NCBI GenBank assembly: GCA_903897805.1
Contig: CAIUCV010000005.1
Span: forward strand, 2,384-66,383
Reading direction: 5' to 3'
DNA from: Candidatus Yanofskybacteria bacterium
Lineage (GTDB): Bacteria > Patescibacteriota > Minisyncoccia > 2-02-FULL-40-12 > IGHO2-01-FULL-4-A
DNA length: 64,000 nt
The notes under the pieces: generated by a model
Databases searched by the model: none
The model's input: the letters and a program-made list of their open reading frames with translations, nothing else
What the model was told of the DNA's origin: nothing
Shown here: in pieces, positions 9,847-63,213 of the stretch
How positions within the stretch are numbered: position 1 is the first letter of the stretch
Layout: each line of letters begins with the position of its first letter
Program-made: the position numbers and the translations under genes

Positions 9847-9895
9847 CTAAGTATATTCTAACTCATTTACGGTCTAATGTTATGCACAAGTAATC

Positions 9896-14034: not shown

Positions 14035-14119
14035 GCCGCTGTGGTGGAATTGGCAGACACGCACGACTCAAAATCGTGTGCCGCAAGGCATGTCGGTTCG
14101 ACTCCGACCAGCGGCACCA
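14035..14119 (+). tRNA. tRNA-Leu (anticodon CAA), type II with long variable arm, CCA encoded
   Basis: Acceptor GCCGCTG/CAGCGGC, anticodon stem CACGA/TCGTG, loop CTCAAAA, T-arm GTCGG-TTCGACT-CCGAC, discriminator A. Confidence 0.8.
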
Positions 14120-14187: not shown

Positions 14188-15465
14188 ATGTTAAAAAATA
14201 AACTTACAAAAAATCTAAATCCGGATGTAACCGTTGAAACTATTGAGAAAGCAAGTAAAAAATTGAAGGAAGTTATTAAAAAAACTCCCCTTCAGTTTTC
14301 CAAAAGACTTTCTAAGTTGTACAAAGCCCACGTGTATCTTAAAAGAGAAGATTTGCAAGAGGTTCGCTCATATAAAATCCGTGGAGCATATAACCTAATG
14401 AGTTCTCTTACCAATTCCGAGAAGGAAAAAGGCGTTGTCTGCGCAAGTGCTGGAAATCATGCTCAAGGTGTAGCATTTAGTGCTTCGGCTTTGAAAGTTC
14501 GTGCAGTTATTTTTATGCCAGTAACTACGCCGTTGCAAAAAGTTAACAGGGTTAAAGAGTTTGGCGGAAGATGGGTAAAAATAGAGTTGGTAGGAGCAAT
14601 TTATGATGAAAGCTCCACCGCCGCTAAAAACTTTTGTAGAAAAGTTGGGGCTGTTTTTGTCCACCCATTTGATGATGAAAGAGTAATCTCCGGACAAGGG
14701 ACGGTCGGTAAGGAAATTTTTGATCAAGCGGAAGGAAAATTAGACTATATACTTTGTCCAGTTGGAGGCGGAGGGCTAATATCCGGAGTAGGTACATACC
14801 TTAAAACAAAATTAAAGAATGTAAAACTTGTCGGAATTGAACCAAAAGGAGCGGCGGGAATGTATCGTTCCTTAAAAAATGGCAAGGTTACTGCTCTTGA
14901 AAATATAGATCCATTCGTAGATGGCGCGGCTGTTAGAACAGTAGGAACTAAAACTTTTAAAATCTCCTCAAAACTTGTTGACCAAATGGTATTAGCAGAT
15001 GAGGGAAAAGTTTGTACTACTATGGTTGATCTATACCAGAATGAAGGCATTGTAACAGAACCAGCCGGAGCGCTTTCTATCACTGCTTTAGAAGAGCTAT
15101 CGGAAAAAATTAAGGGCAAAACAGTAGTTTGTATTTTGAGTGGAGGAAATAACGACATTTTACGCTATCCGGAGATTATGGAAAAAAGTTTGGTCTACCA
15201 GGGACGCAAACACTACTTTATTGTGGAGTTTGCCCAAAAACCCGGGCAACTTAAAAAGTTCGTTAACAGCGCGCTTGGCCCAACTGATGATATAGTCCGT
15301 TTTGAATACATAAAGAAAAACTCCAAAGAAATGGGACCAGCTTTGGTTGGAATTGAGTTGACTAAAAAAGAAGATTTTCAACCTCTCCTCAGCAGAATGG
15401 ATAAACTTGGAATAAGATATACAGTTCTTACAAGTAGGGATATTTTGTATAGTTACTTGATATAA
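14188..15465 (+). CDS. ilvA: Threonine dehydratase (PLP-dependent, with C-terminal regulatory domain)
   Basis: SYKIRGAYN PLP-lysine motif, glycine-rich GGGGLISG loop, ~90-aa C-terminal ACT-like extension. Confidence 0.8.
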   Translation: MLKNKLTKNLNPDVTVETIEKASKKLKEVIKKTPLQFSKRLSKLYKAHVYLKREDLQEVRSYKIRGAYNLMSSLTNSEKEKGVVCASAGNHAQGVAFSASALKVRAVIFMPVTTPLQKVNRVKEFGGRWVKIELVGAIYDESSTAAKNFCRKVGAVFVHPFDDERVISGQGTVGKEIFDQAEGKLDYILCPVGGGGLISGVGTYLKTKLKNVKLVGIEPKGAAGMYRSLKNGKVTALENIDPFVDGAAVRTVGTKTFKISSKLVDQMVLADEGKVCTTMVDLYQNEGIVTEPAGALSITALEELSEKIKGKTVVCILSGGNNDILRYPEIMEKSLVYQGRKHYFIVEFAQKPGQLKKFVNSALGPTDDIVRFEYIKKNSKEMGPALVGIELTKKEDFQPLLSRMDKLGIRYTVLTSRDILYSYLI

Positions 15466-47059: not shown

Positions 47060-47070
47060 TATTACCACAG

Positions 47071-47422
47071 TGGAGATGTGGGGAGTTGAACCCCAGTCTG
47101 GAAAATGATTTAAAATTGCACTACAAGTTTAGCCGGGTTGATTAGACTTCAGTTAAAAACCCGACAAAATAACCAAAGACCTATTTTGTATTTTTCGTGC
47201 TCTATCGCTAAAACATTGAAAAGGTGATAGGGCCTTATCCTGCTGATGACGCCCTGGTCCGGTTAGCAGAAATCACCGGGAGGACGCGCCTTAAGCGTAA
47301 GCTAGGGCGTAATTGCTGTTGTAATTGGCAATTATGATTTTGGGTAAATGATTTAAGTGGTGATTATCCATCCACTACTTGCGCAGATTTTAAAAGAAAT
47401 TCCATCGAAGCCGGTCATCCCC
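47071..47422 (-). ncRNA. ssrA: tmRNA (SsrA), standard one-piece, ~352 nt; predicted tag ANYNSNYALAYA
   Basis: 5' GGGGAUGACCGGCUUCGAUGG, consistent with a GGGGNUGA tmRNA 5' end. 3' T-arm UGGGG-UUCAACU-CCCCA + CAUCUCC + A discriminator, with a G3-U70 wobble. Tag ORF GCC AAT TAC AAC AGC AAT TAC GCC CTA GCT TAC GCT TAA. Adjacent to smpB. Confidence 0.8.
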
Positions 47423-47864
47423 GTTGTTTTAATGTTCTTTCTATTTTTCTTTGGGTTTCGCGCTCAATGATTTTCTCGCGTTTATCGCCTTTCTTTTTTC
47501 CTTGCCCGATGCCCACTTCAAGCTTTATCAAACCATTCTTATTATACAACTTAATTGGCACCAATGTCAATCCCTTCTCCTGCGATTTCCCGGTTAGATA
47601 ATTGAGCTCTTTCTTTTTCAAAAGCAATTTCCGGCTCCTTTGCTGGTCATAATTGGGCGGGACATTGCCGGCTTGGTAAGGCGAGACCGTTGCACCCAAA
47701 AGCCACGCTTCACTGTTCATAATTTTAACATACGCGCCCTTTATTGAGCACCTGCCGGCCCTGATTGATTTAACCTCGTGTCCGGTCAAAACCAGACCCG
47801 CTTCCAGCGTCTCCAAAATGTGATAATCAAAATGAGCTTTTGGGTTTGTGGCGTACGTTTGCAC
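47415..47864 (-). CDS. smpB: SsrA-binding protein SmpB
   Basis: YEAGLVLTGHEVKS...C-terminal basic tail; 149 aa. Confidence 0.85.
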   Translation of the reverse strand: MQTYATNPKAHFDYHILETLEAGLVLTGHEVKSIRAGRCSIKGAYVKIMNSEAWLLGATVSPYQAGNVPPNYDQQRSRKLLLKKKELNYLTGKSQEKGLTLVPIKLYNKNGLIKLEVGIGQGKKKGDKREKIIERETQRKIERTLKQRG

Positions 47865-51970: not shown

Positions 51971-52774
51971 ATGGCGTTTGCTTCAGAGTTCTTTGCTTCA
52001 GAATTTCCGATTATGCATCAGGAAAAAGTAGGGGCCATCATTGAGCGTTTGAAGATTGGGCAATCTTCCCCGCAGCCGGCAGGGAGAAAGAGCAACACTA
52101 CCGTTTTCGCGTTTACGTATGATAACGGGGTGGTTTTAGCCGGCGATCGGAGAATGACAGATGGCTATTATGAGATTGCTTCTGACAACACTATTAAAGT
52201 TAAACAATTGTCCAAATTCTCGGCTATAGCTTGCGCTGGCTCCTGCAATATTATCAGATACTTAGAAGACAACATGGAAGCCGTTTGCGCTATTTTCAAG
52301 GAACGGTATCAAAGGGAATTGTCGCCGGATGGACAAGCCAACCACCTTCGAAATTTAATGGAGGGGTGGTGGTATTTCTACGTTTTTTACTGGTATTGGT
52401 CTATAGGTGTGCCCGTACTGGCTACCTATGATTTGGAAATGGGGCAACCGCGCATATTTTCTTTTGCCGAAGATGGTTTCTATTTTGAACCGTCGTTTCT
52501 TGCCGGAACCGGTTGCGGATTTGAAACGGTCAGGGGACTGATAGTTGATCGTTGGCGGGAAGACCTTGATGCTGACTTGGCGATAACTCTTGCCGTCAGA
52601 GCAATGATCCACTCAGGAGTCGCAAGCCATGGCGTTAGTGATGCCCGAATCGTACCGCCGAAAGTCGCTCTTATTGATAAGGAAGGATTTAGATGGGTAC
52701 CTGAGCGACTAATTATAAAGAAGAGGGACGACTTATTAAAAGAAATAAGGGGGATACGATGCCTGTTGTGCTAA
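51971..52774 (+). CDS. prcB: 20S proteasome beta-subunit-like Ntn hydrolase with ~52-aa propeptide
   Basis: After the propeptide: TTVFAFTYDNGVVLAGDRRMT (Thr1, Asp17), Lys ~33 (IKVKQL), GTG loop (AGTGCGFE). Aligns by eye to actinobacterial PrcB. Confidence 0.65.
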   Translation: MAFASEFFASEFPIMHQEKVGAIIERLKIGQSSPQPAGRKSNTTVFAFTYDNGVVLAGDRRMTDGYYEIASDNTIKVKQLSKFSAIACAGSCNIIRYLEDNMEAVCAIFKERYQRELSPDGQANHLRNLMEGWWYFYVFYWYWSIGVPVLATYDLEMGQPRIFSFAEDGFYFEPSFLAGTGCGFETVRGLIVDRWREDLDADLAITLAVRAMIHSGVASHGVSDARIVPPKVALIDKEGFRWVPERLIIKKRDDLLKEIRGIRCLLC

Positions 52775-53448
52775 GACTTGAACCGTCTCCGGAAGCAAAA
52801 AAAGAAGCCATTAATTCCTTGCTTTCAGACAGAACAGGGCTGATCATCAGAGGCAAGAATTGTGTAGTAGTTGCTATCAAGTCGCCGGTTATAGTTAATG
52901 TTCTTAAACATCCTGGTGAAGGCCTTGAGCATTCTAGCCAAAGTACAAAATTGTTCATTTGGGGGCTTGGCGGTTCTGTTGCCGCGAGAAGAGGTTTTGG
53001 AATAGAGTTTGGCCGATTTGAGAACGAATTGAGAAACAGATTTTCCCATAGAGACCTGAATTTTGTAATGCTTAACGATTTCATCAGTGGTTACCTCCGA
53101 AAGGACCTTTATAGCCGCAAGTCCGATGAGCCCTTGGCGCTGGAATTCATTTTGGCTGAGATTACCTTGAGTAGTATGACCTTTTCCATCATCAATTTTG
53201 ACGGGGATTCAAGATTTTTCAAGGAAAGCAGCTTTACTGTTATCGGATGCACTGGCGACAAGGAAAAAAAGGAATTGACAGAATCTCTCAATAGCTTGAA
53301 TTTGGGCAATCTTTCGGCAAAAGAAATTAGTGAATTAGTTCAGCCACTGCTGGAGAAATTCAAGGGCGACTTCTTTTTGATATCTTTTTCCTTGAAGAGC
53401 AGGAAGGCCCCAAAACAAAAAAATAAACCGCGAGCAAGACGCCAATAG
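52759..53448 (+). CDS. prcA: 20S proteasome alpha-subunit-like protein, translationally coupled to the beta-like gene
   Basis: RBS AAGGGGGA; 16-nt overlap with the upstream gene. EPSPEA...GKNCVVVAIKSPV...GSVAARRGFGIEFGRFENELRNRF parallels the PrcA layout. No N-terminal Thr, so likely non-catalytic. Confidence 0.5.
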   Translation: MPVVLRLEPSPEAKKEAINSLLSDRTGLIIRGKNCVVVAIKSPVIVNVLKHPGEGLEHSSQSTKLFIWGLGGSVAARRGFGIEFGRFENELRNRFSHRDLNFVMLNDFISGYLRKDLYSRKSDEPLALEFILAEITLSSMTFSIINFDGDSRFFKESSFTVIGCTGDKEKKELTESLNSLNLGNLSAKEISELVQPLLEKFKGDFFLISFSLKSRKAPKQKNKPRARRQ

Positions 53449-53536
53449 CGTCTTTTTTATTTCGGATAAATTGCATTATTTATCTCCGCGCGTTAATATG
53501 AGCGCGAATCCAGTTCTTTAAAAAAGGAGGTTTCGC

Positions 53537-54184
53537 ATGAAAGCCAGACCGAATAGTACATCAAAACCCGCTAATTTAAAGCAGGTATTAAATTGGACTC
53601 CGACCGATTGGCAATATCAGAAATTCTTGGACCGGGGGATCGTTTTTATACAAGGCGTGACCGATGGAGCAATGTCATCTGAATTTAGTTACGAAATGAT
53701 GCATCTCACGAAAATCGAACCGCCCATGGAAGGCGGTACCAAAAAGCCGATTTGGATAATCCTGGATTCGTGTGGCGGCAGTGTTGTTGCGGGCCTAGCC
53801 ATATATGACACGATAAAAGCCACGGTGGCTTCCGGTGCCGAAGTGAATATTATTGGCAAAGGCATAGTAGCGTCTATGGCCTCTGTCATTATTCAGGCCG
53901 GGTCAAAAAGACTTGCCTTGCCGCATACCCAATTCCTTGTGCATGAAATTAGCCAGTCGATTTTCGAGGAGGAAGAAAAAGTCAGCGAGGGCGAAGAGCG
54001 GATTCAGGAAGTCAAGAGAATCAACCGTATCATCATGAATATTATTGCCGAAAGAGCGGGCATAGATGTTGATGAACTCATTAAACTTTCAAAGAAAAAA
54101 GATTGTTGGTTTGATGCTTTAGGCGCGCGCAAGTTAGGCACAAATGGCCTGATTGACGAAATCATTACCACTTTTCCTTTTTAA
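53537..54184 (+). CDS. clpP: ClpP-family serine protease (N-terminally extended)
   Basis: ILDSCGGSVVAGLAIYDTI...GIVASMASVI (Ser), LVHEIS (His), DCWFDALGA...GLIDEI (Asp). Confidence 0.7.
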   Translation: MKARPNSTSKPANLKQVLNWTPTDWQYQKFLDRGIVFIQGVTDGAMSSEFSYEMMHLTKIEPPMEGGTKKPIWIILDSCGGSVVAGLAIYDTIKATVASGAEVNIIGKGIVASMASVIIQAGSKRLALPHTQFLVHEISQSIFEEEEKVSEGEERIQEVKRINRIIMNIIAERAGIDVDELIKLSKKKDCWFDALGARKLGTNGLIDEIITTFPF

Positions 54185-54260: not shown

Positions 54261-55976
54261 ATGATAAGAGACGTCATCGGCGAAATAGTTAAGGGAGCAA
54301 TAGACGAAATTTGGGGGACGAAAATAACGCCTTTGGATGTTTTAATTGAAGTTGAAAAACCCCAGAGCGAATTCGGCGATTACGCAGTAAATGTGGCTTT
54401 CGCGTTGAGCAAGTTGTTGCACTTTGGCCCCAATGAAATTGCCGGTTCGCTCGTCCGGAAACTAAACGAGAAAAGGACGCCGGAAATTGCAAAGGTTGAA
54501 GCTGCCGGTGGGTACATAAATTTTTTCCTGAGTTCGGAATATCTGCAAAAGGAGCTATCAAAAATCGCAGAGGACAAAAATTTTGGCCTGAATGAGACCT
54601 TGAAAGGAAAAACGGTGATGATTGAATACACAGACCCGAATCCTTTTAAACTTTTCCATATCGGGCATCTAATGAGCAACACGATAGGGGAGTCAATCGC
54701 GCGGCTATACGAAGCTTCCGGCGCGAAGGTCATCAGAGCTAATTATCAAGGGGACGTCGGGCTTCATGTCGCCAAGGCGATCTGGGAAATGAAAAAAGAA
54801 AAGATTCTTCCTCGTGATGTCGTGATGGAAACTCTAGCGCGAGTATATGCTATTGGATCTAAATCATATGAAGATGCGGAAGAAGAATCTGCGGTCAAAA
54901 AAGAAATAGCAGAGATCAATGAGAAGATCTATGAAAAAAGTGATTCAGAAATAAACAATTTATATAATTCGGGTAGAAAAGTTTCTTTGGATAATTTTGA
55001 AGTGATGTATAAAAAACTCGGCACGAAGTTTGATGTCTATTTCTTTGAAAGCGAAATGGGCGAGGAGGGCAAAGAAACAGTTTTGGGCAATCCGAAGATT
55101 TTTAAGAAGAGTGAAGGCGCGATTGTTTTCAAAGGCGAGGACTATGGACTACACACGAGGGTTTTTATCAATTCCAAAGGTTTACCGACATATGAGGCCA
55201 AGGAACTTGGGCTGAATAAGAAAAAATTTGAGCTTTATCCGTTGGATCTTTCCATTATTATTACTGGTAATGAAATTGACGAGTATTTCAGAGTTTTATT
55301 AAAGGTAATGGAGCTTATTATGCCCGAGGTCGCCGAGAAAACCGTCCACATTTCTCACGGAATGCTACGGCTGCCAAGCGGCAAGATGTCTTCTAGAACC
55401 GGGGATGTGATTACTGCAGAGTGGCTCATAAGTGAAATAAAATCCAGGTTGAAAGAAAAGGAAAACAAAGATAAGGGACTGACCGGCGAAGAAAAAGAAA
55501 ACAATTCCGAGCAAATTGCCATCGGCGCAATGAAATATTCTATACTCCGCCAGGCCCTGGGGCACGATATTATCTTTGATTTTGATAAGTCCTTATCTTT
55601 GGAAGGGGACTCGGGGCCTTACGCGCAATATGCTTATGCGCGGTTAAAGAGCATTCTTTCCAAAGCAGAAAATTATGATGCGAGGTCAGCGGATATGGCG
55701 GTGCTTAAGGAAAAATCCGAGCTGGAACTGATCAAGCAACTACTTGAATTACCCGAAGTGATTAAGTACAGCGGGGAAAAGCTCGCTCCACATCATTTAG
55801 TCAAATATATCCACGAGCTGGCAAGCGCGATGAATCATTTCTACGAATCCATCAGAATACTAACCGACGAAGATGTGCCGCGACGACAGGCGCGATTGGT
55901 TCTTGTTGAAACTGCGGCGGCGATTCTCAAAACCGGCCTCGGTCTTTTAGGGGTTAAGGTGCTGGAGAAAATTTGA
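54261..55976 (+). CDS. argS: Arginine--tRNA ligase
   Basis: HIGH motif (FHIGHLMS), DALS-type C-terminal anticodon-binding domain, 571 aa. Confidence 0.9.
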   Translation: MIRDVIGEIVKGAIDEIWGTKITPLDVLIEVEKPQSEFGDYAVNVAFALSKLLHFGPNEIAGSLVRKLNEKRTPEIAKVEAAGGYINFFLSSEYLQKELSKIAEDKNFGLNETLKGKTVMIEYTDPNPFKLFHIGHLMSNTIGESIARLYEASGAKVIRANYQGDVGLHVAKAIWEMKKEKILPRDVVMETLARVYAIGSKSYEDAEEESAVKKEIAEINEKIYEKSDSEINNLYNSGRKVSLDNFEVMYKKLGTKFDVYFFESEMGEEGKETVLGNPKIFKKSEGAIVFKGEDYGLHTRVFINSKGLPTYEAKELGLNKKKFELYPLDLSIIITGNEIDEYFRVLLKVMELIMPEVAEKTVHISHGMLRLPSGKMSSRTGDVITAEWLISEIKSRLKEKENKDKGLTGEEKENNSEQIAIGAMKYSILRQALGHDIIFDFDKSLSLEGDSGPYAQYAYARLKSILSKAENYDARSADMAVLKEKSELELIKQLLELPEVIKYSGEKLAPHHLVKYIHELASAMNHFYESIRILTDEDVPRRQARLVLVETAAAILKTGLGLLGVKVLEKI

Positions 55977-56009: not shown

Positions 56010-59000
56010 ATGGCGGAAGGTTTTGATTTTCCCAAAATAGAGGAAAAGATACTCAAGTTTTGGAAGGATAGGAAAATTTTTGAAAGAACTTTGGAAAACC
56101 GCGCAAATGCGAAGCGTTTTGTTTTCTTTGACGGCCCGCCTTTTGCCACGGGCCTGCCTCACTATGGTCATATTCTTGGCGGTACAGTAAAGGATCTTGT
56201 TCCTCGTTTTTTCACAATGGCGGGCTTTCGCGTTGACAGACGCTGGGGCTGGGACTGCCACGGCTTGCCGATCGAAAATATTATAGAAAGCAATATTGGA
56301 ATTTCCGGTCGCAAGGAAATAGAAAAATACGGTATAGACAAATTCAACAAGAAGGCCAAAGAACAGGTGTTGAAATACGTTGACGAATGGGAAAAAATAG
56401 TTGACCAGACCGGCCGATTCATTGATTTTAAGAATTCCTACAAGACTATGGATGCCTCGTATATGGAATCTGTCTGGTGGGCATTCGCTGAGATTTATAA
56501 GAAAGATCTTGTTTATAAGGACTCGCGCATTTCACTTTATTGTCCAAGATGCGAAACTCCGCTGTCGAATTTTGAGATTGCCATGGATAATTCCTATAAG
56601 GACGTAGAGGACGAGACCGTTTATGTGAAATTTAAAATAAAAGCCGGGCAGAAATTGGGTGATTTAGAAATTGACGATTCAACGTATATTCTTGCCTGGA
56701 CAACCACGCCCTGGACATTGCCGGGCAATACCTCTTTAGCAGTAGGAGAGAAAATACACTACGTCATCGTTAAAAAGGGCAACGAATACCACATCGCGGC
56801 CAAAGAAATATCGTTCCAGTTGGAACCCGACGCCCAGACGATCAGCGAATTTGAGGGCAAGGCCCTTTTGGGCTTGGAATATGAACCGCTATTTGATATC
56901 AAATACCTCAACGAGGGTAATACCCCTAATTATAAGAGCGCCTTTAAAATTGTAGGAGCCGACTTTGTTTCCACTGAAGAGGGGACCGGGATAGTCCATA
57001 TAGCGCCGGCTTTTGGTGAAGAAGATTTTATATTGGCAAAGAAAGAAAAGTTGCCGTCGTTTCAAACCGTCAATGATTCCGGAATATTTTTTGACTGGGT
57101 TGAGGATTATGGTGGCATATTTGTGTTTGACGCTAATCCTTTAATAATCGAGAATCTCAAATCGCGCGGCCTGCTTTATAAAAAACAAACAATAATCCAC
57201 AGCTACCCGGTTTGTTACCGATGCGAAACAAAACTTTTGTACAAGCAACAACCAGCCTGGTTTGTGGCGGTCAGTAAGATTAAGAAGAAGATGATTTCCG
57301 CCAATAAGAAAATAGACTGGCATCCGGCGCACTTGAAAGACGGTAGATTTGGTAAGGGGTTGGAAACCGCACCCGATTGGAATGTTTCACGAAGCCGGTT
57401 TTTCGGTACACCTTTGCCGATATGGCAGTGCGAAAAATGCCAGGAGCATCAAGTTATTGGTTCTCTTGAGGGTTTGGAACGATACCGCTACCGCGGCAAA
57501 AATACGTATTTTCTGCTCCGTCACGGCACGAGAGCGCAAAGTCACGATGAAAATGGCGAGCAGCTCACTGCTTCCCAGCTTGCCCTTGATAAATACGACT
57601 TGACTCCGGAGGGGGTTAAGCAGATTGAAGAAGTCGCGGAAAGGATCAAAGAAATCGGCGGGCTGGATTTAATTTTCGCCTCCCCGTTTTTGAGGACCAG
57701 ACATACGGCGGAAATTGTGGCTAAGAAATTGGGCCTGGATGTCAAAATAGACGACAGATTAAAAGAAATAGACGAAGGCCTTGCTTGCGAAGGCAAACCC
57801 CGCCCTGCTTGTTTGCCCGTGGACGGAAAGCCTACTTTTGATTACAAATTCGGCGGCGGAGAAAGCTGGAGCGATGTAAGGGCTAGGATGTTTTCAGTCA
57901 TCAAGGAGATAGACGAAAAGTACGAGGGCAAAAGAATCCTGCTGGTAAGCCATGGCGACCCGCTGTGGTTATTATACAGTTTGACGAAAAATCTTTCGGA
58001 AGAAGAAACCATTGTCAGAAGAACCGCCCTTTACATAGATAAAGGCGAGTTAAGACAGACCGATTTTAAAAATTATCCGTATGACGAAAAGGGCGAAGTG
58101 GATTTGCACAGGCCTTATATAGATGGAATATATCTCAGATGCGACAAGTGCAGCGGGAAGATGACGAGATTGAACGACGTTTTTGATTGTTGGTTTGAAT
58201 CTGGTTCTATGCCCTATGGGCAATCCCATTTCCCGTTTGAGAATAAGAAGCAATTTGAAGACAACTTTCCGGCAGATTTCGTTTCCGAATATACCGCCCA
58301 AACGCGCGGTTGGTTTTATACCATGCATGTTATCTCAACTGCCATTTTCGGCAAACCGCCCTTCAGACATGTGGTAACCACCGGTAATATTTTAGCCGAG
58401 AACGGAGAGAAAATGTCCAAATCAAAAAACAACTATCCAGACCCGCAGTTACTTTTGGACAAATATGGAGCCGATAGCCTGCGCTATTATCTTATGACTT
58501 CACCGGTTATGACGGCGGATAACGTCAATTTTTCAGAAAAAGGAGTGGATGAGGTATATAAAAATTTCGTTCTCATATTAATAAACGTCCTGCGTTTTTG
58601 GGAGATCTATGAAAAGAAGTATCTCCCCAAAGGAACAGAAACACTGCGCAACAAATTGGACAAACTGGATATAAAGAAAATTGAAAAGATTGACGAATGG
58701 ATATTATCTCGCCTTGAAACCACGAAAAAATATGTAACCGAGAACTTTGAAAAGTATGAGATTATGAATGCCTGCCGTGCCATTCAGCCATTTATTGACG
58801 ACCTGTCTCTTTGGTATGTCAGGCGAAATCGTGAGCGCATAAAACGTGGTGATAAGTCTGGAGAGGCAGCGTTCTTTACCCTGTCGTATGTTTTGGTTGA
58901 GTTAAGTAAACTGATCGCACCGGTCACACCGTTTATCGCTGACCACGTATATAAGACGATTAACAACCGAAAAGAATCGGTTCATCTGGAAGATTGGCCC

Positions 59001-59540
59001 AAGCCCAAGAAGAAGTTTATAAATCCGGCGCTGGAGAGCCAAATGAGAGAACTGCGTGACTTTGTAACTTTGGGGCTTGCCCAAAGAAAAGTGAGCAATA
59101 TCAAAGTTCGCCAGCCCTTGGCCGGTGTTACTTTGAAAAAGTCGGAAAAGTTTGAACCGGAACTGGAGAAATTAATTTTAGCCGAGCTTAATGTAAAGAG
59201 TGTTGATTATAATCCGGCCCAGGAAGAAGAATTGGCTCTTGATAAAAGAATAACGCTTGAATTGTTGAAAGAAAGCTATGCTAGAGAAGTTATGCGCCAG
59301 ATACAGGACATGCGGAAAGAAGCGAAATACAAACTGGACGAAAAAATCTATGCCGCTTGGGCTTCAGATAACAAAGATGTTGCAGGCGCAATGGACGCTT
59401 TTGGAAAAGAAATCGCCGAAAATACTCTCCTTGTGGAATTCAGCCGTGGCCATCAGCCGAAAGAGGTTTTTGATGTTGAGAAAGAATTTGAACTTGGCCC
59501 ACAAGTGAATATTTGGTTGGGGGTTAGGAATAAAAACTAG
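56010..59540 (+). CDS. ileS: Isoleucine--tRNA ligase (type 2) with an embedded histidine-phosphatase (PGAM-like) domain
   Basis: HIGH (PHYGHILG), KMSKS (EKMSKSKNN), editing and anticodon-binding regions. Residues ~495-650 carry RHG...SHG histidine-phosphatase motifs (YFLLRHGT..., IFASPFLRTRHTAEIVA, LVSHGDPL). Confidence 0.9.
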   Translation: MAEGFDFPKIEEKILKFWKDRKIFERTLENRANAKRFVFFDGPPFATGLPHYGHILGGTVKDLVPRFFTMAGFRVDRRWGWDCHGLPIENIIESNIGISGRKEIEKYGIDKFNKKAKEQVLKYVDEWEKIVDQTGRFIDFKNSYKTMDASYMESVWWAFAEIYKKDLVYKDSRISLYCPRCETPLSNFEIAMDNSYKDVEDETVYVKFKIKAGQKLGDLEIDDSTYILAWTTTPWTLPGNTSLAVGEKIHYVIVKKGNEYHIAAKEISFQLEPDAQTISEFEGKALLGLEYEPLFDIKYLNEGNTPNYKSAFKIVGADFVSTEEGTGIVHIAPAFGEEDFILAKKEKLPSFQTVNDSGIFFDWVEDYGGIFVFDANPLIIENLKSRGLLYKKQTIIHSYPVCYRCETKLLYKQQPAWFVAVSKIKKKMISANKKIDWHPAHLKDGRFGKGLETAPDWNVSRSRFFGTPLPIWQCEKCQEHQVIGSLEGLERYRYRGKNTYFLLRHGTRAQSHDENGEQLTASQLALDKYDLTPEGVKQIEEVAERIKEIGGLDLIFASPFLRTRHTAEIVAKKLGLDVKIDDRLKEIDEGLACEGKPRPACLPVDGKPTFDYKFGGGESWSDVRARMFSVIKEIDEKYEGKRILLVSHGDPLWLLYSLTKNLSEEETIVRRTALYIDKGELRQTDFKNYPYDEKGEVDLHRPYIDGIYLRCDKCSGKMTRLNDVFDCWFESGSMPYGQSHFPFENKKQFEDNFPADFVSEYTAQTRGWFYTMHVISTAIFGKPPFRHVVTTGNILAENGEKMSKSKNNYPDPQLLLDKYGADSLRYYLMTSPVMTADNVNFSEKGVDEVYKNFVLILINVLRFWEIYEKKYLPKGTETLRNKLDKLDIKKIEKIDEWILSRLETTKKYVTENFEKYEIMNACRAIQPFIDDLSLWYVRRNRERIKRGDKSGEAAFFTLSYVLVELSKLIAPVTPFIADHVYKTINNRKESVHLEDWPKPKKKFINPALESQMRELRDFVTLGLAQRKVSNIKVRQPLAGVTLKKSEKFEPELEKLILAELNVKSVDYNPAQEEELALDKRITLELLKESYAREVMRQIQDMRKEAKYKLDEKIYAAWASDNKDVAGAMDAFGKEIAENTLLVEFSRGHQPKEVFDVEKEFELGPQVNIWLGVRNKN

Positions 59541-59556
59541 AGCCATTTCTTCAATA

Positions 59557-60078
59557 ATGCGGACTCAAGCGATAATTCTCAAAAAAATACCGGTTCGCGA
59601 ATATGACGAGCTGGTCGTTTGTTATACGAAAGATTCGGGCAAGCAGGTTTATCAGGCCAAGAGCATACTGCGCCCGTCTTCCAAGCAGGCAGGCCATCTG
59701 GATATTTTGAATCTGGTGGACTTTTCTCTTGTTCAAAAAAACTCCCACCCCATTATTACCAGCTCCTACTGTCTGGATACGTTCCGCGATCTGAAATCAT
59801 CTTTGCCGGCGCTGGCCGCTGCTTATTTTTTACTTGAATGTTTTGACAAGCTTGTTTTTGAGGGCGAGCCCGACCCGAAACTCTGGGATTTTTTGCACTC
59901 TCATTTGTGCGACTACAACCGGCTGGCCCAGAAGGGGAGAGCTAACTGGCCAATAGTTATAAAATTAACAAGAGAAGACCTCCTGAAGGTAATGGGTTAT
60001 GATCCTGCCTTGCCGATCGAGCAGTTAGCCAACGCCCATTTCAAGTCGTTACAATTTGCCAGGAGAGTGGTAAAATAG
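59557..60078 (+). CDS. recO: DNA repair protein RecO (short form)
   Basis: N-terminal OB-fold pattern AIILKKIPVREYDELVVCYTKDSGK; 173 aa. Confidence 0.55.
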   Translation: MRTQAIILKKIPVREYDELVVCYTKDSGKQVYQAKSILRPSSKQAGHLDILNLVDFSLVQKNSHPIITSSYCLDTFRDLKSSLPALAAAYFLLECFDKLVFEGEPDPKLWDFLHSHLCDYNRLAQKGRANWPIVIKLTREDLLKVMGYDPALPIEQLANAHFKSLQFARRVVK

Positions 60079-60086: not shown

Positions 60087-61889
60087 TTGGATTTTAAGAT
60101 AGAACCAATTCAAAATCCCAATTTAGGACCGCGGGTTTCGCCGGCGCCGTTTTTTAGCCGCCGGAGGATAAAATTGCTTGGCCTTGGCATCACCATCCTT
60201 TTAGTCATTATCCTCGTTTTTTTCTTTATGGGGCGCGGTTCGTTCAGCGAGAGCCGCGTTGAACTGAAAATTGAGGGACCCCAAGAAATATCTGCTGGTG
60301 CATCGGTTTCGTATAAAATTACCTATGCTAATAACAACAAGATTTCGCTTTCCGATGTTAAGCTGAGCTTTTTCTATCCCCTGGATGCGATCGTGACGAG
60401 AGACAATAATGTTCTGAACATAACTAACGAGAATTTTGATATTGGCGAGCTCAAGAGCGGAGAATCGGGAGAAAGAACCCTGACCGCATTTGTCGTCGGC
60501 GATAAGGGGAATATAAAGACGGCTAGGTCTACTCTAACTTTCAAGCCAAGCAATCTTAGCTCTGTTTTTAAGAAAGAGGCCTCATTGGCAACCACCATAA
60601 CAACGCTTGCCGTGCCGATTACGCTGGTTGCTCCGCCAACGGTGATTAATGGCCAGAACATCAGTTACCTCATAGATTACCGCAATCAGTCCGGTGAGGA
60701 TTTGCAAGATTTGCGCTTCCAAGTCCGTTATCCCGAAGGATTTAAATCAAGCCAATATTCTCCTCAGCCAACAAGCCGGAGTCAGGGTCAGGATGTTTGG
60801 GTAATTCCCGTCCTAAAACAAGGCGAGGGAGCCAGGATTACCATTCAAGGCGCTCTTAGCGGCAATGAAAGAGAGACTAAGACGGTTTCGGTGATTTTGC
60901 AGAAAAAAATAGCGACGGCGACCGGCGATAATTATGTTGATTTTGAAAAGACCGAGGCCTCTTCGGTTATCGCAACTCCTCTTTTGTCCGTTGGGCTGAT
61001 CGTGAACGATTCGGCCGATTACATCGCCCACGCGGGAGACCTTCTCCGCTACAAGACAAACTTGAAAAACAATAGCGATTCTGATATCACCGGCCTAAGT
61101 TTTTCCGTCCATCTGGACGGCAGTATGTTTGATTTTGCTTCCGTAAGGTCAGATGGGTTTTTTGACAGCAGAGTCGGCACTATTTATTGGAACAGTTCAA
61201 CGGTTTCGGCCTTAAATAATCTGGGGGCTAACCAGTCCGCCACGATTGAGTTTGAAGCGCGCCTGAAAAGCAGTTTTTCAGGCGGTTTGGGCGCCCGTGA
61301 ATCGTTTGTAAAGGCAACTGCTCATCTGGAAACGCCAAATGTCCCGGCGAATCTTGATATGGATAAGCTGACAGCCGACAGCGAATTGGTGACCCGCATT
61401 TCCTCTTCCCCGACGTTTGTCCAGAAAGTCCTTTTGAATGATCCTGTTTTCGGCTCAAGCGGGCCGTTCCCGCCTAAAGTAAATTCCAAAACAACTTTTA
61501 CTATCCGCTGGAATTTGGTTAATCCGTCCAACGATCTGTCGTCTGCAAAAGTTACGGCCACGCTGATGCCGGGGGTGGTCTGGGAAGAAAGGGCAAGAGT
61601 CAGCGGCAGCCAGCCCCAGCCGGTGTATAACGCTGGGCAGGGGACCGTTACTTGGGATTTAGGAACCCTGCCGGCCGGCATAGGCATTTCCTTCCCGCAA
61701 TATGAAGCCGATTTTCAGATCTCAGTTACTCCTTCCGTTAATCAGGTTGGCGAAACAGTCCCTCTTTTAAAGAATGTGAGCTTTGAGGGCACGGATACCT
61801 TTACTAAAGAAAGAATCTTGCGTACGATACCCGATGTTACTACATCCAATATCAGCGATTCCAGCGCGAACGGAAATGTGCAACAGTAA
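60087..61889 (+). CDS. Large membrane-anchored surface protein with repeated beta-rich domains (hypothetical)
   Basis: N-terminal TM (LLGLGITILLVIILVFFFMG), then ~550 aa of Ser/Thr/Asn-rich repeats. Confidence 0.45.
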   Translation: MDFKIEPIQNPNLGPRVSPAPFFSRRRIKLLGLGITILLVIILVFFFMGRGSFSESRVELKIEGPQEISAGASVSYKITYANNNKISLSDVKLSFFYPLDAIVTRDNNVLNITNENFDIGELKSGESGERTLTAFVVGDKGNIKTARSTLTFKPSNLSSVFKKEASLATTITTLAVPITLVAPPTVINGQNISYLIDYRNQSGEDLQDLRFQVRYPEGFKSSQYSPQPTSRSQGQDVWVIPVLKQGEGARITIQGALSGNERETKTVSVILQKKIATATGDNYVDFEKTEASSVIATPLLSVGLIVNDSADYIAHAGDLLRYKTNLKNNSDSDITGLSFSVHLDGSMFDFASVRSDGFFDSRVGTIYWNSSTVSALNNLGANQSATIEFEARLKSSFSGGLGARESFVKATAHLETPNVPANLDMDKLTADSELVTRISSSPTFVQKVLLNDPVFGSSGPFPPKVNSKTTFTIRWNLVNPSNDLSSAKVTATLMPGVVWEERARVSGSQPQPVYNAGQGTVTWDLGTLPAGIGISFPQYEADFQISVTPSVNQVGETVPLLKNVSFEGTDTFTKERILRTIPDVTTSNISDSSANGNVQQ

Positions 61890-61920: not shown

Positions 61921-63213
61921 ATGAAAGACGGGGATAATTTAATGGAAAAAATTACCTCCCTTTGCAAAAGGCGTGGTTTTATTTTTCCCGGCTCGGAAAT
62001 ATACGGTGGGCTGGCGGGGTTTTACGATTATGGCCCGTTAGGCGTGGAGATGAAGAACAATTTGAAATCATTGTGGTGGAAATGGATGACCAAAGAACAT
62101 GAAAATATAGTCGGGATAGATGGTGCTATTATCACCGCTCCGAAAGTTTGGGAAGCCAGCGGCCACGTGAAAAGTTTTGTCGATCCGCTGGTTGAATGCA
62201 AAAAGTGCCACCACCGTTTCAAAGCGGATGACATCGCGGGCGATAAATGTCCGGATTGCGGCGGTCCACTGACTGAACCACGATTTTTCAATACACTTGT
62301 TTCAACAGAGCTGGGAATTATTGAAGGCGAAAAGACAAAAACTTATCTTCGTGGCGAAGCCTGCCAAACAATTTATTTGAATTACAAAAACGTTCTCGAT
62401 TCAACGCGGGTAAAAATTCCTTTTGGTATCTGCCAGATTGGTAAAGCTTTTCGCAATGAAGTGACGCCAGGAAATTTTCTATTTAGACTGAGGGAATTAG
62501 AACAGTGGGATTTACAATGGTTTTGTCATCCCTCCGAAATGGAGAAATGGTTTAAGTTTTGGAAAGAAGAGAGAATGAATTGGTATAAAAGTCTATTTAC
62601 TCATCCGGAGAATCTGGGATTTTATCAGCATGTCAAATTGGCTCACTACGCCAAAAAGGCTTTTGATATTTATTATGAAGCTTCGCCCATCGGCAAAGAA
62701 ATGGAGGGCATCCATTGGCGGGGGGACTGGGACTTATCTAGACACTCCGAGTTCTCGGGTCAAGATTTGAGCTATACCGATCCGGAAACAAATGAAAAAT
62801 TCATTCCGAATATTGTTGAAGCATCAGGCGGAGTTGATCGCACATTCTTATTCTTAATGCTTGATGCTTATGTTGAGGAAGAAGAGCGGGTGGTTTTAAA
62901 ACTGAATCGGAAAATTGCGCCTTATAAAGTTGCAGTGTTTCCATTGCTTGCCAACAAACCTGAATTAGTTGAAGCGGCCCGCAAAATTTATGATGATTTG
63001 ACCCCGCGTTTTATGGCCGCCTGGGATGACCGCGGAAATATCGGCAAGCGTTATTACTCGCAAGACGAAATCGGTACGCCTTATTGTGTAACTTTTGACT
63101 TTGATTCCCTTGAAGATAAAAAAGTTACCGTCCGCGACCGTGACACAATGAAACAGGATAGAGTAGCGATAGGGGAACTTGCGTCCTATCTGGAGGAGAA
63201 ATTAGGAAAATAA
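61921..63213 (+). CDS. glyQS: Glycine--tRNA ligase (alpha2 dimeric, archaeal/eukaryote-like type)
   Basis: RRGFIFPGSEIYGGLAGFYDYGPLG class-II motifs; 430 aa; the start may be the internal MEKITSL. Confidence 0.85.
   Translation: MKDGDNLMEKITSLCKRRGFIFPGSEIYGGLAGFYDYGPLGVEMKNNLKSLWWKWMTKEHENIVGIDGAIITAPKVWEASGHVKSFVDPLVECKKCHHRFKADDIAGDKCPDCGGPLTEPRFFNTLVSTELGIIEGEKTKTYLRGEACQTIYLNYKNVLDSTRVKIPFGICQIGKAFRNEVTPGNFLFRLRELEQWDLQWFCHPSEMEKWFKFWKEERMNWYKSLFTHPENLGFYQHVKLAHYAKKAFDIYYEASPIGKEMEGIHWRGDWDLSRHSEFSGQDLSYTDPETNEKFIPNIVEASGGVDRTFLFLMLDAYVEEEERVVLKLNRKIAPYKVAVFPLLANKPELVEAARKIYDDLTPRFMAAWDDRGNIGKRYYSQDEIGTPYCVTFDFDSLEDKKVTVRDRDTMKQDRVAIGELASYLEEKLGK

What the first reader, a model, noticed from the sequence alone, without database searches (positions are those of the whole stretch)
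56010..59540. Isoleucyl-tRNA synthetase carrying an internal histidine-phosphatase (PGAM/SixA-like) domain
The IleRS is 1176 aa, about 150-200 aa longer than usual. The insertion lies between the CP region (ending ...PIWQCEKCQEHQVIG) and the conserved DVFDCWFESG motif. It carries all hallmark motifs of the histidine phosphatase superfamily: the RHG catalytic motif (FLLRHGTRA), the LTPEG...FASPFLRTRHTAEI core, and the C-terminal SHG motif (LLVSHGDPLW). A phosphatase module embedded in an aminoacyl-tRNA synthetase is not a described architecture. It could act on a nucleotide, on a tRNA 2',3'-cyclic or 3'-phosphate end, or on a phosphorylated regulator.
Basis: seen in the sequence. Interest (0 to 1): 0.65.

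Follow-up and report, generated by a model that had tools for sequence, protein, structure and literature searches.

The report
Isoleucyl-tRNA synthetase with embedded phosphatase
The essential enzyme that loads isoleucine onto tRNA here carries a complete, apparently active phosphatase enzyme inside one of its surface loops; hundreds of tiny uncultivated (Parcubacteria) bacteria keep the two linked in one way or another, and no paper I could find describes it, which points to an unknown partnership between tRNA charging and a phosphate-removing reaction.

Summary
ORF 56010-59540 (+) encodes a full-length type-2 IleRS (TIGR00392, 862 bits). A 194-aa histidine-phosphatase module (PF00300, E=2.3e-29; aa 494-687) is nested in the zinc-knuckle CP3 subdomain.

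- **Not an artefact:** identical DNA occurs in three independent datasets. 119 of the 120 best homologs (44-100% identity, many Parcubacteria lineages) share the architecture.
- **Looks active:** the catalytic residues (R504, H505, R562, E/D586, H648) are invariant or nearly so.
- **Family placement:** nearest solved relatives are small-molecule phosphatases (PspA, GpgP, PhoE, CobC). It is not dPGM or SixA.
- **Linkage to ileS:** the same module also exists (i) free-standing, overlapping the start of an insert-less ileS, (ii) fused to the C-terminus of ArgRS, directly upstream of ileS in one of two lineages, (iii) fused to TsaC, directly downstream of ileS in one of two lineages, and (iv) in 2-4 copies or at a second IleRS site.

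This is a Rosetta-stone pattern. It indicates an active phosphomonoesterase functionally coupled to IleRS, most likely acting on a small molecule rather than on tRNA. The substrate is unknown, and I found no description in the literature. The window's ileS is also a recombinant mosaic whose breakpoints bracket the CP3-phosphatase cassette.

The parts
56010..59540 (+). ileS: 1176-aa type-2 isoleucyl-tRNA synthetase with nested phosphatase (stop included)
   Evidence: ORF; TIGR00392 862 bits vs cut-off 621; AF2 model pLDDT 89.9, best PDB matches IleRS2 8c8v (E 1.8e-91), yeast 8wnd, T. thermophilus 1ile
56010..57374 (+). First half of Rossmann fold (HIGH = HYGH aa 51-54, nt 56160-56171), CP core, CP1 editing domain (WTTTPWT aa 230-236; GTGIVH 325-330), CP2
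   Evidence: Motif positions; invariant columns in a 52-sequence alignment; Pfam tRNA-synt_1 13-494
57375..57488 (+). CP3 subdomain, proximal arm, with first zinc-knuckle pair C474/C477 (nt 57429-57440)
   Evidence: C474 and C477 invariant in 120/120; CP3 definition from PMC7191050
57489..58070 (+). Inserted histidine-phosphatase module (aa 494-687; Pfam core aa 501-665 = nt 57510-58004)
   Evidence: PF00300 E=2.3e-29; delimited against P0073; module-alone AF2 pLDDT 86.9, Foldseek prob 1.0 to PspA/GpgP/PhoE/CobC
57516..57527 (+). LRHG motif: R504 (phosphate pocket), H505 (predicted phospho-accepting nucleophile), G506
   Evidence: R504 and H505 in 135/135 IleRS-embedded, 180/180 ungapped free-standing and 3/3 ArgRS-fused modules
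57681..57698 (+). SPFLRT: S558 and R562 (second phosphate-pocket arginine)
   Evidence: S558 and R562 each 134/135 in IleRS-embedded, 185/185 free-standing, 3/3 ArgRS-fused
57765..57767 (+). E586, predicted general acid/base (equivalent to E89 of dPGM)
   Evidence: E or D in every sequence: IleRS group 127 E + 8 D, free-standing 45 E + 140 D; role assigned from knowledge of the superfamily
57948..57968 (+). SHGDPLW: H648 (second catalytic histidine) plus the subfamily signature D-P-L-W
   Evidence: H648 in 135/135, 185/185, 3/3 and 69/69; W653 in 114/135 and 156/185
58071..58184 (+). CP3 distal arm: NYPYDEKGEVDLHRPYID stub and second zinc-knuckle pair C711/C714 (nt 58140-58151)
   Evidence: H700, D705, C711 and C714 invariant; the stub is retained in deletion derivative P0073
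58185..58679 (+). Second half of Rossmann fold (DCWFESG aa 726-732; KMSKS aa 801-805 = nt 58410-58424)
   Evidence: invariants K801, S803 and K804
58692..59537 (+). Anticodon-binding helical domain (Anticodon_1 aa 895-1037) and type-2 C-terminal domain (DUF5915 aa 998-1151)
   Evidence: Pfam
54261..55976 (+). argS (ArgRS, 571 aa) directly upstream; in related lineages this is the protein that carries the module at its C-terminus
   Evidence: Pfam; ArgRS-HisPhos fusions P0130/P0268/P0269
59557..63213 (+). Conserved downstream synteny: RecO (59557-60078), DUF11/CLIPPER surface protein (60087-61889), class II aaRS (61921-63213)
   Evidence: Pfam; same order in L033, L051, L055, L056, L058, L062, L063

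Best explanation
This is a bifunctional protein. A complete, editing-competent type-2 isoleucyl-tRNA synthetase carries, at the tip of its zinc-knuckle CP3 subdomain, a self-contained PhoE-like histidine phosphatase of ~190 aa. Its N- and C-terminal strands both join CP3, so it plugs into the loop without breaking the synthetase fold.

The phosphatase is predicted to work by the standard mechanism of the superfamily. H505 attacks a terminal phosphate held by R504, R562 and H648, forming a phospho-histidine intermediate. E586 protonates the leaving group and then activates water.

The module belongs to a Parcubacteria-specific subfamily (signature N-x-Y-x3-RHG ... SHGDPLW) that is a constant genetic companion of ileS. 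It occurs inside IleRS (here and in most lineages sampled), as a separate gene translationally coupled to an insert-less ileS, fused to the neighbouring ArgRS, or fused to a TsaC that in one lineage is coupled to ileS.

I therefore infer that it is produced in fixed proportion with IleRS and acts with it functionally, but at a separate active site. I also infer that its substrate is a small phosphorylated molecule rather than tRNA or protein. My first-choice guess is a product or by-product common to ATP-dependent adenylate-forming tRNA enzymes: pyrophosphate or a nucleoside phosphate.

Shown: architecture, fold, conservation, recurrence and linkage. Inferred: catalytic activity (~0.85), functional coupling to IleRS (~0.65), small-molecule substrate (~0.6). 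The specific PPi/nucleotide guess is weak (~0.25).
For: - **Architecture and fold:**
- **Active-site conservation:** the catalytic set is conserved in all four forms of the module across 392 module copies. There is one exception at H505, in a multi-copy variant.
- **Recurrence:** 119 of the 120 best homologs carry it, down to 44% identity. 489 clusters at 50% identity match the module with E<1e-10.
- **Split form:** a free-standing 197-198-aa module overlaps the start of an insert-less ileS by 4-8 nt in L033, L055, L056 and L058, that is 4 of 5 contexts examined. This clade has at least 120 clusters at 90% identity.
- **ArgRS C-terminal fusions:** two lineages at 49% identity. One is directly upstream of ileS.
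- **TsaC C-terminal fusions:** two lineages at 44% identity. In one, the gene overlaps the stop codon of an insert-less ileS by 1 nt.
- **Other variants:** a second insertion site and 2-4 tandem copies within IleRS.
- **Small-molecule leaning:** all the top fold neighbours are small-molecule phosphomonoesterases or phosphoglycerate mutases. The module has no generally basic surface, with median pI 7.8 embedded and 5.8 free. TsaC makes a diffusible adenylate and is not known to bind tRNA (own knowledge).
- **Cassette behaviour:** the CP3+module cassette kept the resident ancestry while both catalytic halves of ileS show a different one.
Against: - No biochemical data exist and the substrate is unknown. 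No NCBIfam equivalog model reaches its cut-off.
- Adjacency to ileS could be historical rather than functional. In E. coli, ribF sits upstream of ileS without a known functional link (own knowledge). The ArgRS and TsaC fusions could be neutral stop-codon losses between neighbouring genes in compact genomes.
- The link is not absolute. In L051 and L057 the module stays in the locus although ileS is no longer adjacent. P0073 has cleanly lost the module, and none is visible in 13 kb around it.
- I found no precedent for a branch-1 histidine phosphatase acting as an inorganic pyrophosphatase.
Confidence: 0.6

Rival explanations
1. Hitch-hiker. The module is an ordinary housekeeping phosphatase of broad specificity with no functional relationship to IleRS. 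It happened to sit in the argS-ileS operon of an ancestral Parcubacterium. In compact genomes with overlapping genes it was repeatedly fused to whichever neighbour was at hand, including transposition into a permissive IleRS loop. It is maintained only because it is needed somewhere in metabolism.
For: The structural topology of CP3 varies among the three IleRS structures compared in PMC7191050, so it is a tolerant site. The fusion partners ArgRS and TsaC are neighbours of ileS in at least one lineage each. The module persists without an adjacent ileS in L051 and L057 and can be deleted from IleRS (P0073). Its closest solved relatives are generic phosphatases, and JGI names the free form 'broad specificity phosphatase PhoE'.
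Against: Four different physical linkages to the same gene are maintained over deep divergence. There are also a second independent insertion site and tandem amplification inside IleRS. The cassette was retained through replacement of the surrounding catalytic core. All this is more than expected for a neutral passenger. Rosetta-stone fusions usually signal shared function.
Confidence: 0.2
2. tRNA-end phosphatase. The module removes a 3'- or 2'-phosphate from damaged or processed tRNA(Ile) so that IleRS can charge it, acting in cis on the bound acceptor end.
For: The module is embedded in, or co-translated with, tRNA-handling enzymes. The L060 neighbourhood also holds a CCA-adding enzyme and TGT. 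The ArgRS-fused copies are strongly basic, with net charge about +10.
Against: No member of the superfamily is known to act on RNA ends (own knowledge), and 2',3'-cyclic phosphates are diesters, which this chemistry does not cleave. Fold neighbours are small-molecule enzymes. The module works from very different attachment points: the CP3 tip, the pre-anticodon-domain loop, the ArgRS C-terminus, the TsaC C-terminus and free. That argues against a geometry-dependent action on the acceptor end. TsaC is not a tRNA-binding enzyme (own knowledge). The embedded and free forms are not basic.
Confidence: 0.1
3. Protein phosphatase guarding the synthetase. The module dephosphorylates IleRS itself, or neighbouring tRNA enzymes. 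For example, it could reverse inhibitory phosphorylation by HipA-type toxin kinases, which are known to target aminoacyl-tRNA synthetases (own knowledge).
For: The superfamily includes protein phosphatases (PGAM5, Sts-1, SixA; own knowledge). Tethering a phosphatase to its substrate would explain fusion to several different tRNA-pathway enzymes.
Against: The SixA model scores 28.6 bits against a cut-off of 74.5 and covers only the N-terminal 78 residues. The nearest relatives by sequence and by fold are small-molecule enzymes. There is no PADLOC match, and no kinase gene was seen in any conserved neighbourhood.
Confidence: 0.07
4. Catalytically silent structural or ligand-sensing domain. The fold is kept as a scaffold or an allosteric sensor of a phosphorylated metabolite, without turnover.
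For: One copy in a multi-copy variant has the nucleophile His replaced by Ala. P0187 has RHA instead of RHG.
Against: The nucleophile His, both Arg, the second His and the acid are invariant or conservatively replaced in all single-copy forms examined. This pattern is typical of active enzymes.
Confidence: 0.03
5. Artefact: assembly chimera, frameshift or mis-called ORF.
For: The gene is a mosaic of two ancestries, with breakpoints near the insert.
Against: There is one continuous ORF. DNA is 100% identical in three independently assembled datasets. The architecture is shared by hundreds of diverged homologs. The AF2 model is confident across both junctions.
Confidence: 0.01

Closest known systems
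Type-2 (eukaryote-like) bacterial IleRS, e.g. Priestia megaterium IleRS2 (PDB 8C8V) and Thermus thermophilus IleRS (1ILE)
   Same: Same overall fold and domain order: Rossmann fold, CP core, CP1 editing, CP2, CP3, anticodon-binding domain and type-2 C-terminal domain. Identity is 31% and TM 0.80 on the target. HIGH, KMSKS and the editing motifs are intact. CP3 carries a CxxC...CxxC zinc motif as in T. thermophilus.
   Different: CP3 is split by a 194-aa catalytic domain of an unrelated superfamily. No solved or described IleRS has this.
PhoE / PspA / GpgP (Rv2419c) / CobC-type small-molecule phosphatases of histidine-phosphatase branch 1
   Same: Same fold (Foldseek prob 1.0, TM 0.64-0.71) and same catalytic residues. 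Size is similar at ~190-210 aa, with the phosphatase-type 'L-x-E-x3-G' acid motif rather than the mutase 'ERHYG'.
   Different: Only 20-24% identical, and below every NCBIfam cut-off. It has its own signature (N-x-Y before RHG; SHGDPLW). It is nested in, or genetically tied to, IleRS, whereas the known enzymes are stand-alone metabolic proteins.
Rv2228c-type bifunctional RNase H / acid phosphatase (NCBIfam NF005567)
   Same: Precedent for a branch-1 histidine phosphatase fused to a nucleic-acid enzyme. It is the best-scoring phosphatase-containing NCBIfam model, at 74.6 bits.
   Different: The score is far below the cut-off of 326. That fusion is terminal, not nested, and the partner is RNase H, not a synthetase.
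IleRS with embedded N-acetyltransferase domain (NCBIfam NF040702 'ileS_w_GNAT')
   Same: Another curated case of an IleRS hosting a small-molecule-modifying enzyme domain (the model is listed).
   Different: The guest domain is different (GNAT vs histidine phosphatase). The window protein scores 330 bits against a cut-off of 1999, so it is not a member. I did not examine where the GNAT sits.
TFIIIC tau55 (Tfc7) histidine-phosphatase domain
   Same: A branch-1 histidine-phosphatase domain built into tRNA-related machinery. It is a weak sequence match (2yn0, E=6.4e-5).
   Different: Eukaryotic transcription factor, N-terminal domain, unrelated partner. The resemblance is probably coincidental.

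Membership tests
Isoleucyl-tRNA synthetase (TIGR00392, class Ia) | Whole-protein score above the curated equivalog cut-off | tested here: met
   862.1 bits vs 621.4, in two stretches around the insert
Isoleucyl-tRNA synthetase (TIGR00392, class Ia) | HIGH and KMSKS class I signature motifs | tested here: met
   HYGH aa 51-54 and KMSKS aa 801-805; K801, S803 and K804 invariant, H54 >=90%
Isoleucyl-tRNA synthetase (TIGR00392, class Ia) | CP1 editing domain with threonine-rich peptide and conserved His/Asp | tested here: met
   WTTTPWT 230-236, GTGIVH 325-330 and D339 invariant across 52 sequences
Isoleucyl-tRNA synthetase (TIGR00392, class Ia) | IleRS three-dimensional fold | tested here: met
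   AF2 pLDDT 89.9, pTM 0.83; top 19 PDB matches are all IleRS
Isoleucyl-tRNA synthetase (TIGR00392, class Ia) | Isoleucine-specific aminoacylation of tRNA(Ile) | not testable with these tools
   Requires an enzyme assay
IleRS type 2 (IleRS2) | Closer to IleRS2/eukaryotic than to IleRS1 structures, with a type-2 C-terminal domain instead of a C-terminal zinc-binding domain | tested here: met
   8c8v IleRS2 31% id, E 1.8e-91, vs 8c9e IleRS1 22% id, E 2.4e-58; PF19302 DUF5915 at aa 998-1151
Histidine phosphatase superfamily, branch 1 (PF00300) | Profile score above the Pfam gathering threshold | tested here: met
   102.9 bits vs 21.7, E=2.3e-29, aa 501-665
Histidine phosphatase superfamily, branch 1 (PF00300) | RHG motif with nucleophilic His, plus the Arg/Arg/His phosphate pocket and an acidic proton donor | tested here: met
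   R504, H505, R562, H648 and E586 are present and conserved in embedded, free, ArgRS-fused and other forms
Histidine phosphatase superfamily, branch 1 (PF00300) | Alpha/beta fold of the superfamily | tested here: met
   Module model pLDDT 86.9; Foldseek prob 1.00 and TM 0.61-0.71 to PspA, GpgP, PhoE, CobC and dPGM
Histidine phosphatase superfamily, branch 1 (PF00300) | Phosphoryl transfer through a phospho-histidine intermediate | not testable with these tools
   Requires biochemistry (H505A mutant, phospho-enzyme trapping)
Cofactor-dependent phosphoglycerate mutase (dPGM) | Equivalog score, and mutase-specific motifs (ERHYG after the acid; ~230-250 aa with substrate-binding Arg/Lys/Asn) | tested here: not met
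   NF038349 74.5 bits vs cut-off 225 and GpmB NF002901 48.5 vs 261. The sequence reads LKEIDEG, not ERHYG, and the module is only ~190 aa.
SixA phosphohistidine phosphatase (TIGR00249) | Equivalog score over the whole ~155-aa protein | tested here: not met
   28.6 bits vs cut-off 74.5; the match covers only aa 501-578
PspA phosphoserine phosphatase / CobC alpha-ribazole phosphatase | Equivalog scores | tested here: not met
   PspA NF045917 52.7 vs 350; CobC TIGR03162 53.9 vs 162.9. They are nevertheless among the nearest solved relatives.

The most novel reading that the evidence does not exclude
The module is a dedicated accessory enzyme of tRNA(Ile) charging in Parcubacteria, which would be a previously unrecognised activity class for aminoacyl-tRNA synthetases. 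One possibility is a histidine-phosphatase-type pyrophosphatase or nucleotidase that removes a product of adenylate-forming tRNA enzymes (IleRS, ArgRS, TsaC) in organisms with minimal metabolism. Another is a repair or regulatory phosphatase that the synthetase needs locally. In either case the CP3-phosphatase cassette behaves as an exchangeable unit that is retained even when the catalytic core of ileS has a different ancestry.
Probability: 0.3. Interest if true: 0.85.

Novelty: new variant of a known kind. Interest (0 to 1): 0.68.

Why it matters
Aminoacyl-tRNA synthetases are among the best-studied enzymes. Their accessory domains (editing, tRNA-binding, GST, WHEP and others) are catalogued, and a nested phosphatase is not among those listed in the sources I could read.

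Here an intact second active site sits inside the catalytic-domain insertion CP3 of an essential synthetase. This is true across a very large, uncultivated bacterial radiation with minimal genomes, where each retained domain is likely to matter. The natural series of embedded, split-and-coupled, ArgRS-fused, TsaC-fused, duplicated and deleted forms amounts to a ready-made genetic experiment. It says the phosphatase and IleRS belong together, and it gives clean constructs for biochemistry.

Identifying the substrate could reveal a missing step in how these organisms handle the products of aminoacylation and t6A synthesis (PPi, AMP or other nucleotides), or a new layer of control of tRNA(Ile) charging.

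It also corrects annotation. Many of these proteins are labelled only 'class I tRNA ligase family protein'.

Tried and rejected
- **Assembly chimera or frameshift:** rejected. DNA is identical in three datasets, the ORF is continuous, and there are hundreds of homologs.
- **dPGM, SixA, CobC or PspA identity:** rejected as memberships because all score below their cut-offs.
- **Defence-system link:** no PADLOC hit for the protein or the module.
- **Extra module copies:** none in the 64-kb window or in the flanks of 50 related loci, apart from the double-module ORF in L049.
- **P0073's truncated downstream ORF as TsaC:** it is RecO.
- **L050 as an insert-less IleRS:** its gap is a masked N-run.
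- **Geometry of the phosphatase pocket** relative to the synthetic and editing sites and the tRNA path: could not be done, because model coordinates are not exposed to scripts.
- **Literature:** eight searches found no description of the fusion and no report of a branch-1 histidine phosphatase acting as a pyrophosphatase. Two CPR papers that mention inorganic pyrophosphatase did not state its distribution in the text I could search.
- **Trees:** the two NJ trees are crude, with midpoint rooting and long branches. I use them only for local groupings: ArgRS-fused copies inside free-standing clades, and P0073 nested among insert-bearing IleRS. I do not use them to decide whether the embedded or the split form is ancestral.
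- **Charge:** module pI and net charge gave no clear RNA-binding signal.

Full report
**1. Observation**

The window holds one uninterrupted ORF at 56010..59540 (+) of 1176 aa. Pfam finds the class I synthetase catalytic domain split in two (best stretch aa 13-494), His_Phos_1 at aa 501-665 (E=2.3e-29, 102.9 bits against a cut-off of 21.7), Anticodon_1 and DUF5915. NCBIfam's ileS equivalog scores 862 bits against a cut-off of 621.

BLASTP against the closest insert-less relative, P0073 (961 aa), aligns aa 1-493 and 688-1176 and leaves aa ~494-687 unmatched. P0073 has 'AVKKLKKGEH' at that position. In 119 homologs the insert is 178-213 aa, median 194. The only correction is that the distal junction is at nt ~58070, not ~57960.

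**2. Not an artefact**

The exact 1176-aa protein is encoded on contigs from three datasets: ENA ERZ1426817 (119 kb), JGI 3300023311 and Logan SRR22891766. The two with available DNA are 100% identical to the window over 9531 and 7106 nt. Of the 120 best database homologs (44-100% identity, lengths 1064-1251 aa), 119 carry PF00133 + PF00300.

These include Yanofsky-, Colwell-, Falkow-, Zambryski-, Taylor-, Nomura-, Wolfe- and Spechtbacteria. A full scan of 1.84 billion cluster representatives with the insert alone gave 489 proteins at E<1e-10.

**3. Anatomy**

AlphaFold2 on a 52-sequence alignment gives a confident model (pLDDT 89.9, pTM 0.83, no segment below 50). Confidence across the insert is 76-97 in 10-residue blocks. 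Its best PDB matches are type-2 IleRS: P. megaterium IleRS2 (8c8v, 31% identity, E 1.8e-91), yeast IleRS-tRNA (8wnd) and T. thermophilus 1ile. They rank ahead of type-1 enzymes.

HIGH (HYGH 51-54), KMSKS (801-805) and the editing motifs (WTTTPWT, GTGIVH, D339) are intact and conserved. This looks like the working housekeeping IleRS.

The insert lies between two invariant cysteine pairs, C474/C477 and C711/C714. This region is the CP3 subdomain, which joins CP2 to the second half of the Rossmann fold. It carries a zinc motif in T. thermophilus and has a different topology in each of the three IleRS structures compared in PMC7191050. The module therefore sits at the tip of a zinc knuckle that is structurally variable.

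**4. The module**

All catalytic positions of the superfamily are conserved. After correcting an off-by-one error in my first table, the counts for the IleRS-embedded, free-standing and ArgRS-fused groups are:

| Residue | IleRS-embedded | Free-standing | ArgRS-fused |
|---|---|---|---|
| R504 | 135/135 | 180/180 ungapped | 3/3 |
| H505 | 135/135 | 180/180 ungapped | 3/3 |
| S558 | 134/135 | 185/185 | 3/3 |
| R562 | 134/135 | 185/185 | 3/3 |
| H648 | 135/135 | 185/185 | 3/3 |

Position 586 is always E or D. E618 and R626 are nearly invariant. A subfamily signature (N498, Y500, and SHGDPLW with W653) is shared by all forms.

A model of the module alone (pLDDT 86.9) matches, at TM 0.61-0.71 and 20-24% identity, PspA phosphoserine phosphatase, Rv2419c glucosyl-3-phosphoglycerate phosphatase, PhoE, CobC, RosC and, less well, dPGMs. 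A sequence search of the PDB gives the same picture: 4ij5 at E=1.2e-8, then 5zkk and 1h2e.

The NCBIfam models for dPGM, GpmB, CobC, PspA and SixA all fall far below their cut-offs. The acid motif reads LKEIDEG, the phosphatase type, not the mutase ERHYG. So this is a PhoE-like phosphomonoesterase of unassigned specificity. It is not a mutase and not SixA.

**5. The same module in other arrangements**

This is the main new evidence.

(a) *Free-standing.* A clade of at least 120 clusters of 186-258 aa (nearly all 191-203 aa) proteins, 57-93% identical to the L033 protein, is named 'histidine phosphatase family protein' or 'PhoE' by its sources. In L033, L055, L056 and L058 this gene overlaps by 4-8 nt the start of an insert-less IleRS of 935-962 aa (split into 757 + 189 aa ORFs in L056). 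The same RecO/DUF11/class II aaRS genes as in the window follow downstream. In L057 the module remains in the locus but ileS is not adjacent.

(b) *ArgRS fusion.* P0130, P0268 and P0269 are ArgRS proteins with the module attached directly after the normal ArgRS C-terminus. In L052 and L053 this gene is followed at once by ileS. In L051 it is followed by RecO. L058 shows the unfused order ArgRS - module - IleRS. In the window, ArgRS is also the upstream neighbour.

(c) *TsaC fusion.* P0187 and P0238 (44% identical to each other) are TsaC/Sua5 proteins, the threonylcarbamoyl-AMP synthase of t6A37 synthesis, with the module at the C-terminus. In L060 and L061 this gene overlaps by 1 nt the stop codon of an insert-less IleRS, and a CCA-adding enzyme and TGT lie nearby.

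(d) *Variants within IleRS.* Some proteins have a second module between the catalytic core and the anticodon-binding domain (P0156, L049). Others have tandem copies (P0197, P0226) or three to four copies (P0217). One (P0173, MCX6807234.1) also has an intact NUDIX domain in the CP1 region.

(e) *Loss.* P0073 is nested among insert-bearing IleRS and keeps the post-insert stub NWPYNDKGELDLHRPYID. That indicates a clean secondary deletion.

Among the 147 best representatives beyond those already held, I classify 72 as IleRS-linked, 67 as free (<=230 aa), 1 as ArgRS-linked, 2 as TsaC-linked and 5 as fragments or unclear.

**6. Interpretation**

Conservation of the nucleophile, the phosphate pocket and the acid across all forms argues for an active enzyme. 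The module folds on its own and functions from at least five attachment modes. A mechanism that depends on exact placement next to the IleRS acceptor-end pocket is therefore unlikely.

What is constant is genetic and often translational coupling to ileS. A cassette repeatedly captured by ileS or its immediate neighbours, amplified inside IleRS, and retained through core replacement (section 7) is the classic signature of functional association.

All three fusion partners are ATP-dependent enzymes that form an adenylate and release PPi, and later AMP. TsaC is not known to bind tRNA (own knowledge). Together with the small-molecule fold neighbours and the absence of a general basic surface, this makes a small phosphorylated substrate the most likely. 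I name PPi or a nucleoside phosphate as my first guess, and I hold it weakly.

An alternative common thread is t6A. tRNA(Ile) and AGR-reading tRNA(Arg) carry t6A37, and t6A37 is an identity element for bacterial IleRS (own knowledge).

The main rival is a neutral hitch-hiker in the argS-ileS operon. The L051 and L057 contexts and the P0073 deletion keep that alternative alive.

**7. Mosaic gene (side finding)**

Identity of the query's IleRS segments to two clades:

| Segment (aa) | vs P0004-P0008 | vs P0002/P0003 |
|---|---|---|
| 1-450 | 48-50% | 74% |
| 497-687 (module) | 89-92% | 52% |
| 710-940 | 46-49% | 76-80% |
| 960-1176 | 83-87% | 65% |

Flanking genes show that the P0006 lineage is the close organismal relative (RecO 80%, DUF11 87%). 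The P0003 lineage is distant (ArgRS 55%, RecO 55%, DUF11 58%). Sliding windows put the breakpoints at about aa 455, 700 and 955.

So both catalytic halves have a different ancestry from the CP3-phosphatase cassette and the C-terminal domain. The slightly higher G+C of the cassette region (0.47-0.50 against 0.40-0.46 in the catalytic halves) fits this. Identical DNA in three datasets rules out a chimeric assembly.

**8. Comparison with what is known, and novelty**

Both components belong to well-known families, and the membership tests are met for IleRS type 2 and for histidine-phosphatase branch 1. The combination is abundant in sequence databases but is annotated generically. None of the following mentions it:

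- a search for papers holding both 'isoleucyl-tRNA synthetase' and 'histidine phosphatase', which returned nothing;
- the titles and abstracts of the 5 papers pairing IleRS with phosphoglycerate mutase and of the 15 listed among the 20 pairing histidine phosphatase with tRNA synthetase;
- a 2026 preprint on IleRS domain evolution;
- the AARS Online domain catalogue.

The nearest precedents are the Rv2228c RNase H/acid-phosphatase fusion, NCBI's 'ileS_w_GNAT' family and the TFIIIC tau55 phosphatase domain. I rate the finding a new variant of a known kind.

**9. Limits**

- There is no biochemistry, and I had no access to model coordinates.
- The large searches list only the best 120-150 hits, so counts are lower bounds.
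- Trees are neighbour-joining sketches.
- Absence or presence of canonical pyrophosphatases in these genomes could not be tested.

Noticed in passing
window 56010-59540; breakpoints near nt 57370, 58110 and 58870: ileS is a recombinant mosaic. Both catalytic halves group with the P0002/P0003 clade (74-80% id). The CP3-phosphatase cassette and the C-terminal domain group with the P0004-P0008 clade (83-92% id), which is also the clade of the flanking genes (RecO 80%, DUF11 87%).
   Followed up: partly
L051 10001-12070; L052 10001-12163; L053 1349-3511: Arginyl-tRNA synthetases with the same phosphatase module fused to their C-terminus, in two lineages 49% identical. In L052/L053 the gene is immediately followed by ileS.
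   Followed up: yes
L060 and L061 8001-9179; L059 977-2140: TsaC/Sua5 (t6A threonylcarbamoyl-AMP synthase) with the module at its C-terminus. In L060/L061 it overlaps by 1 nt the stop codon of an insert-less ileS, with a CCA-adding enzyme and TGT nearby.
   Followed up: yes
P0156, P0226, P0197, P0217, P0265, P0177; L049 4410-7199: IleRS variants with two to four copies of the module, either in tandem in CP3 or at a second site between the catalytic core and the anticodon-binding domain. One copy has the nucleophile His replaced by Ala.
   Followed up: partly
P0173 (MCX6807234.1), aa 226-343: An IleRS that carries, besides the phosphatase, a NUDIX hydrolase domain with an intact NUDIX box, inserted in the CP1 region just before the WTTTPWT editing motif.
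   Followed up: partly
window 57786-57812 (C593 and C601): The query and about 30 of 120 homologs have an extra 6-8-residue loop with two conserved cysteines in the 'lid' region of the phosphatase (ACEGKPRPAC). This could be a disulfide or a metal site. It is absent from most of the family.
   Followed up: no
window 14188-15465 (+): A threonine dehydratase with the C-terminal regulatory domain (PALP + Thr_dehydrat_C), the first enzyme of isoleucine biosynthesis. This seems unexpected in a genome of a lineage usually described as lacking amino-acid biosynthesis. It sits next to a tRNA gene at 14035-14116.
   Followed up: no
window 51971-54184 (+): A proteasome-type subunit (PF00227, 267 aa) is followed by a 229-aa protein with no Pfam match and a ClpP-like protease, just upstream of argS.
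   Followed up: no
window 47068-47864 (-): tmRNA (137.7 bits) lies directly downstream of smpB, overlapping its 3' end by 8 nt. The smpB-argS-ileS neighbourhood is conserved in L054, L056 and L058.
   Followed up: no
window 2813-11005 (-): A type IV pilus gene cluster: prepilin peptidase, PilC-like T2SSF, two T2SSE ATPases and PilM.
   Followed up: no
L014 (QYPD01000003.1, 8.5-kb contig): A Parcubacteria-type IleRS with the phosphatase insert sits on a short contig of a MAG labelled 'Spirochaetia bacterium'. It is probably a mis-binned contig.
   Followed up: no
L056 6591-9418: In this split-form genome the insert-less IleRS is called as two ORFs (757 + 189 aa) that overlap near the C-terminal domain. 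This may be a frameshift, a sequencing error or a genuine split.
   Followed up: no
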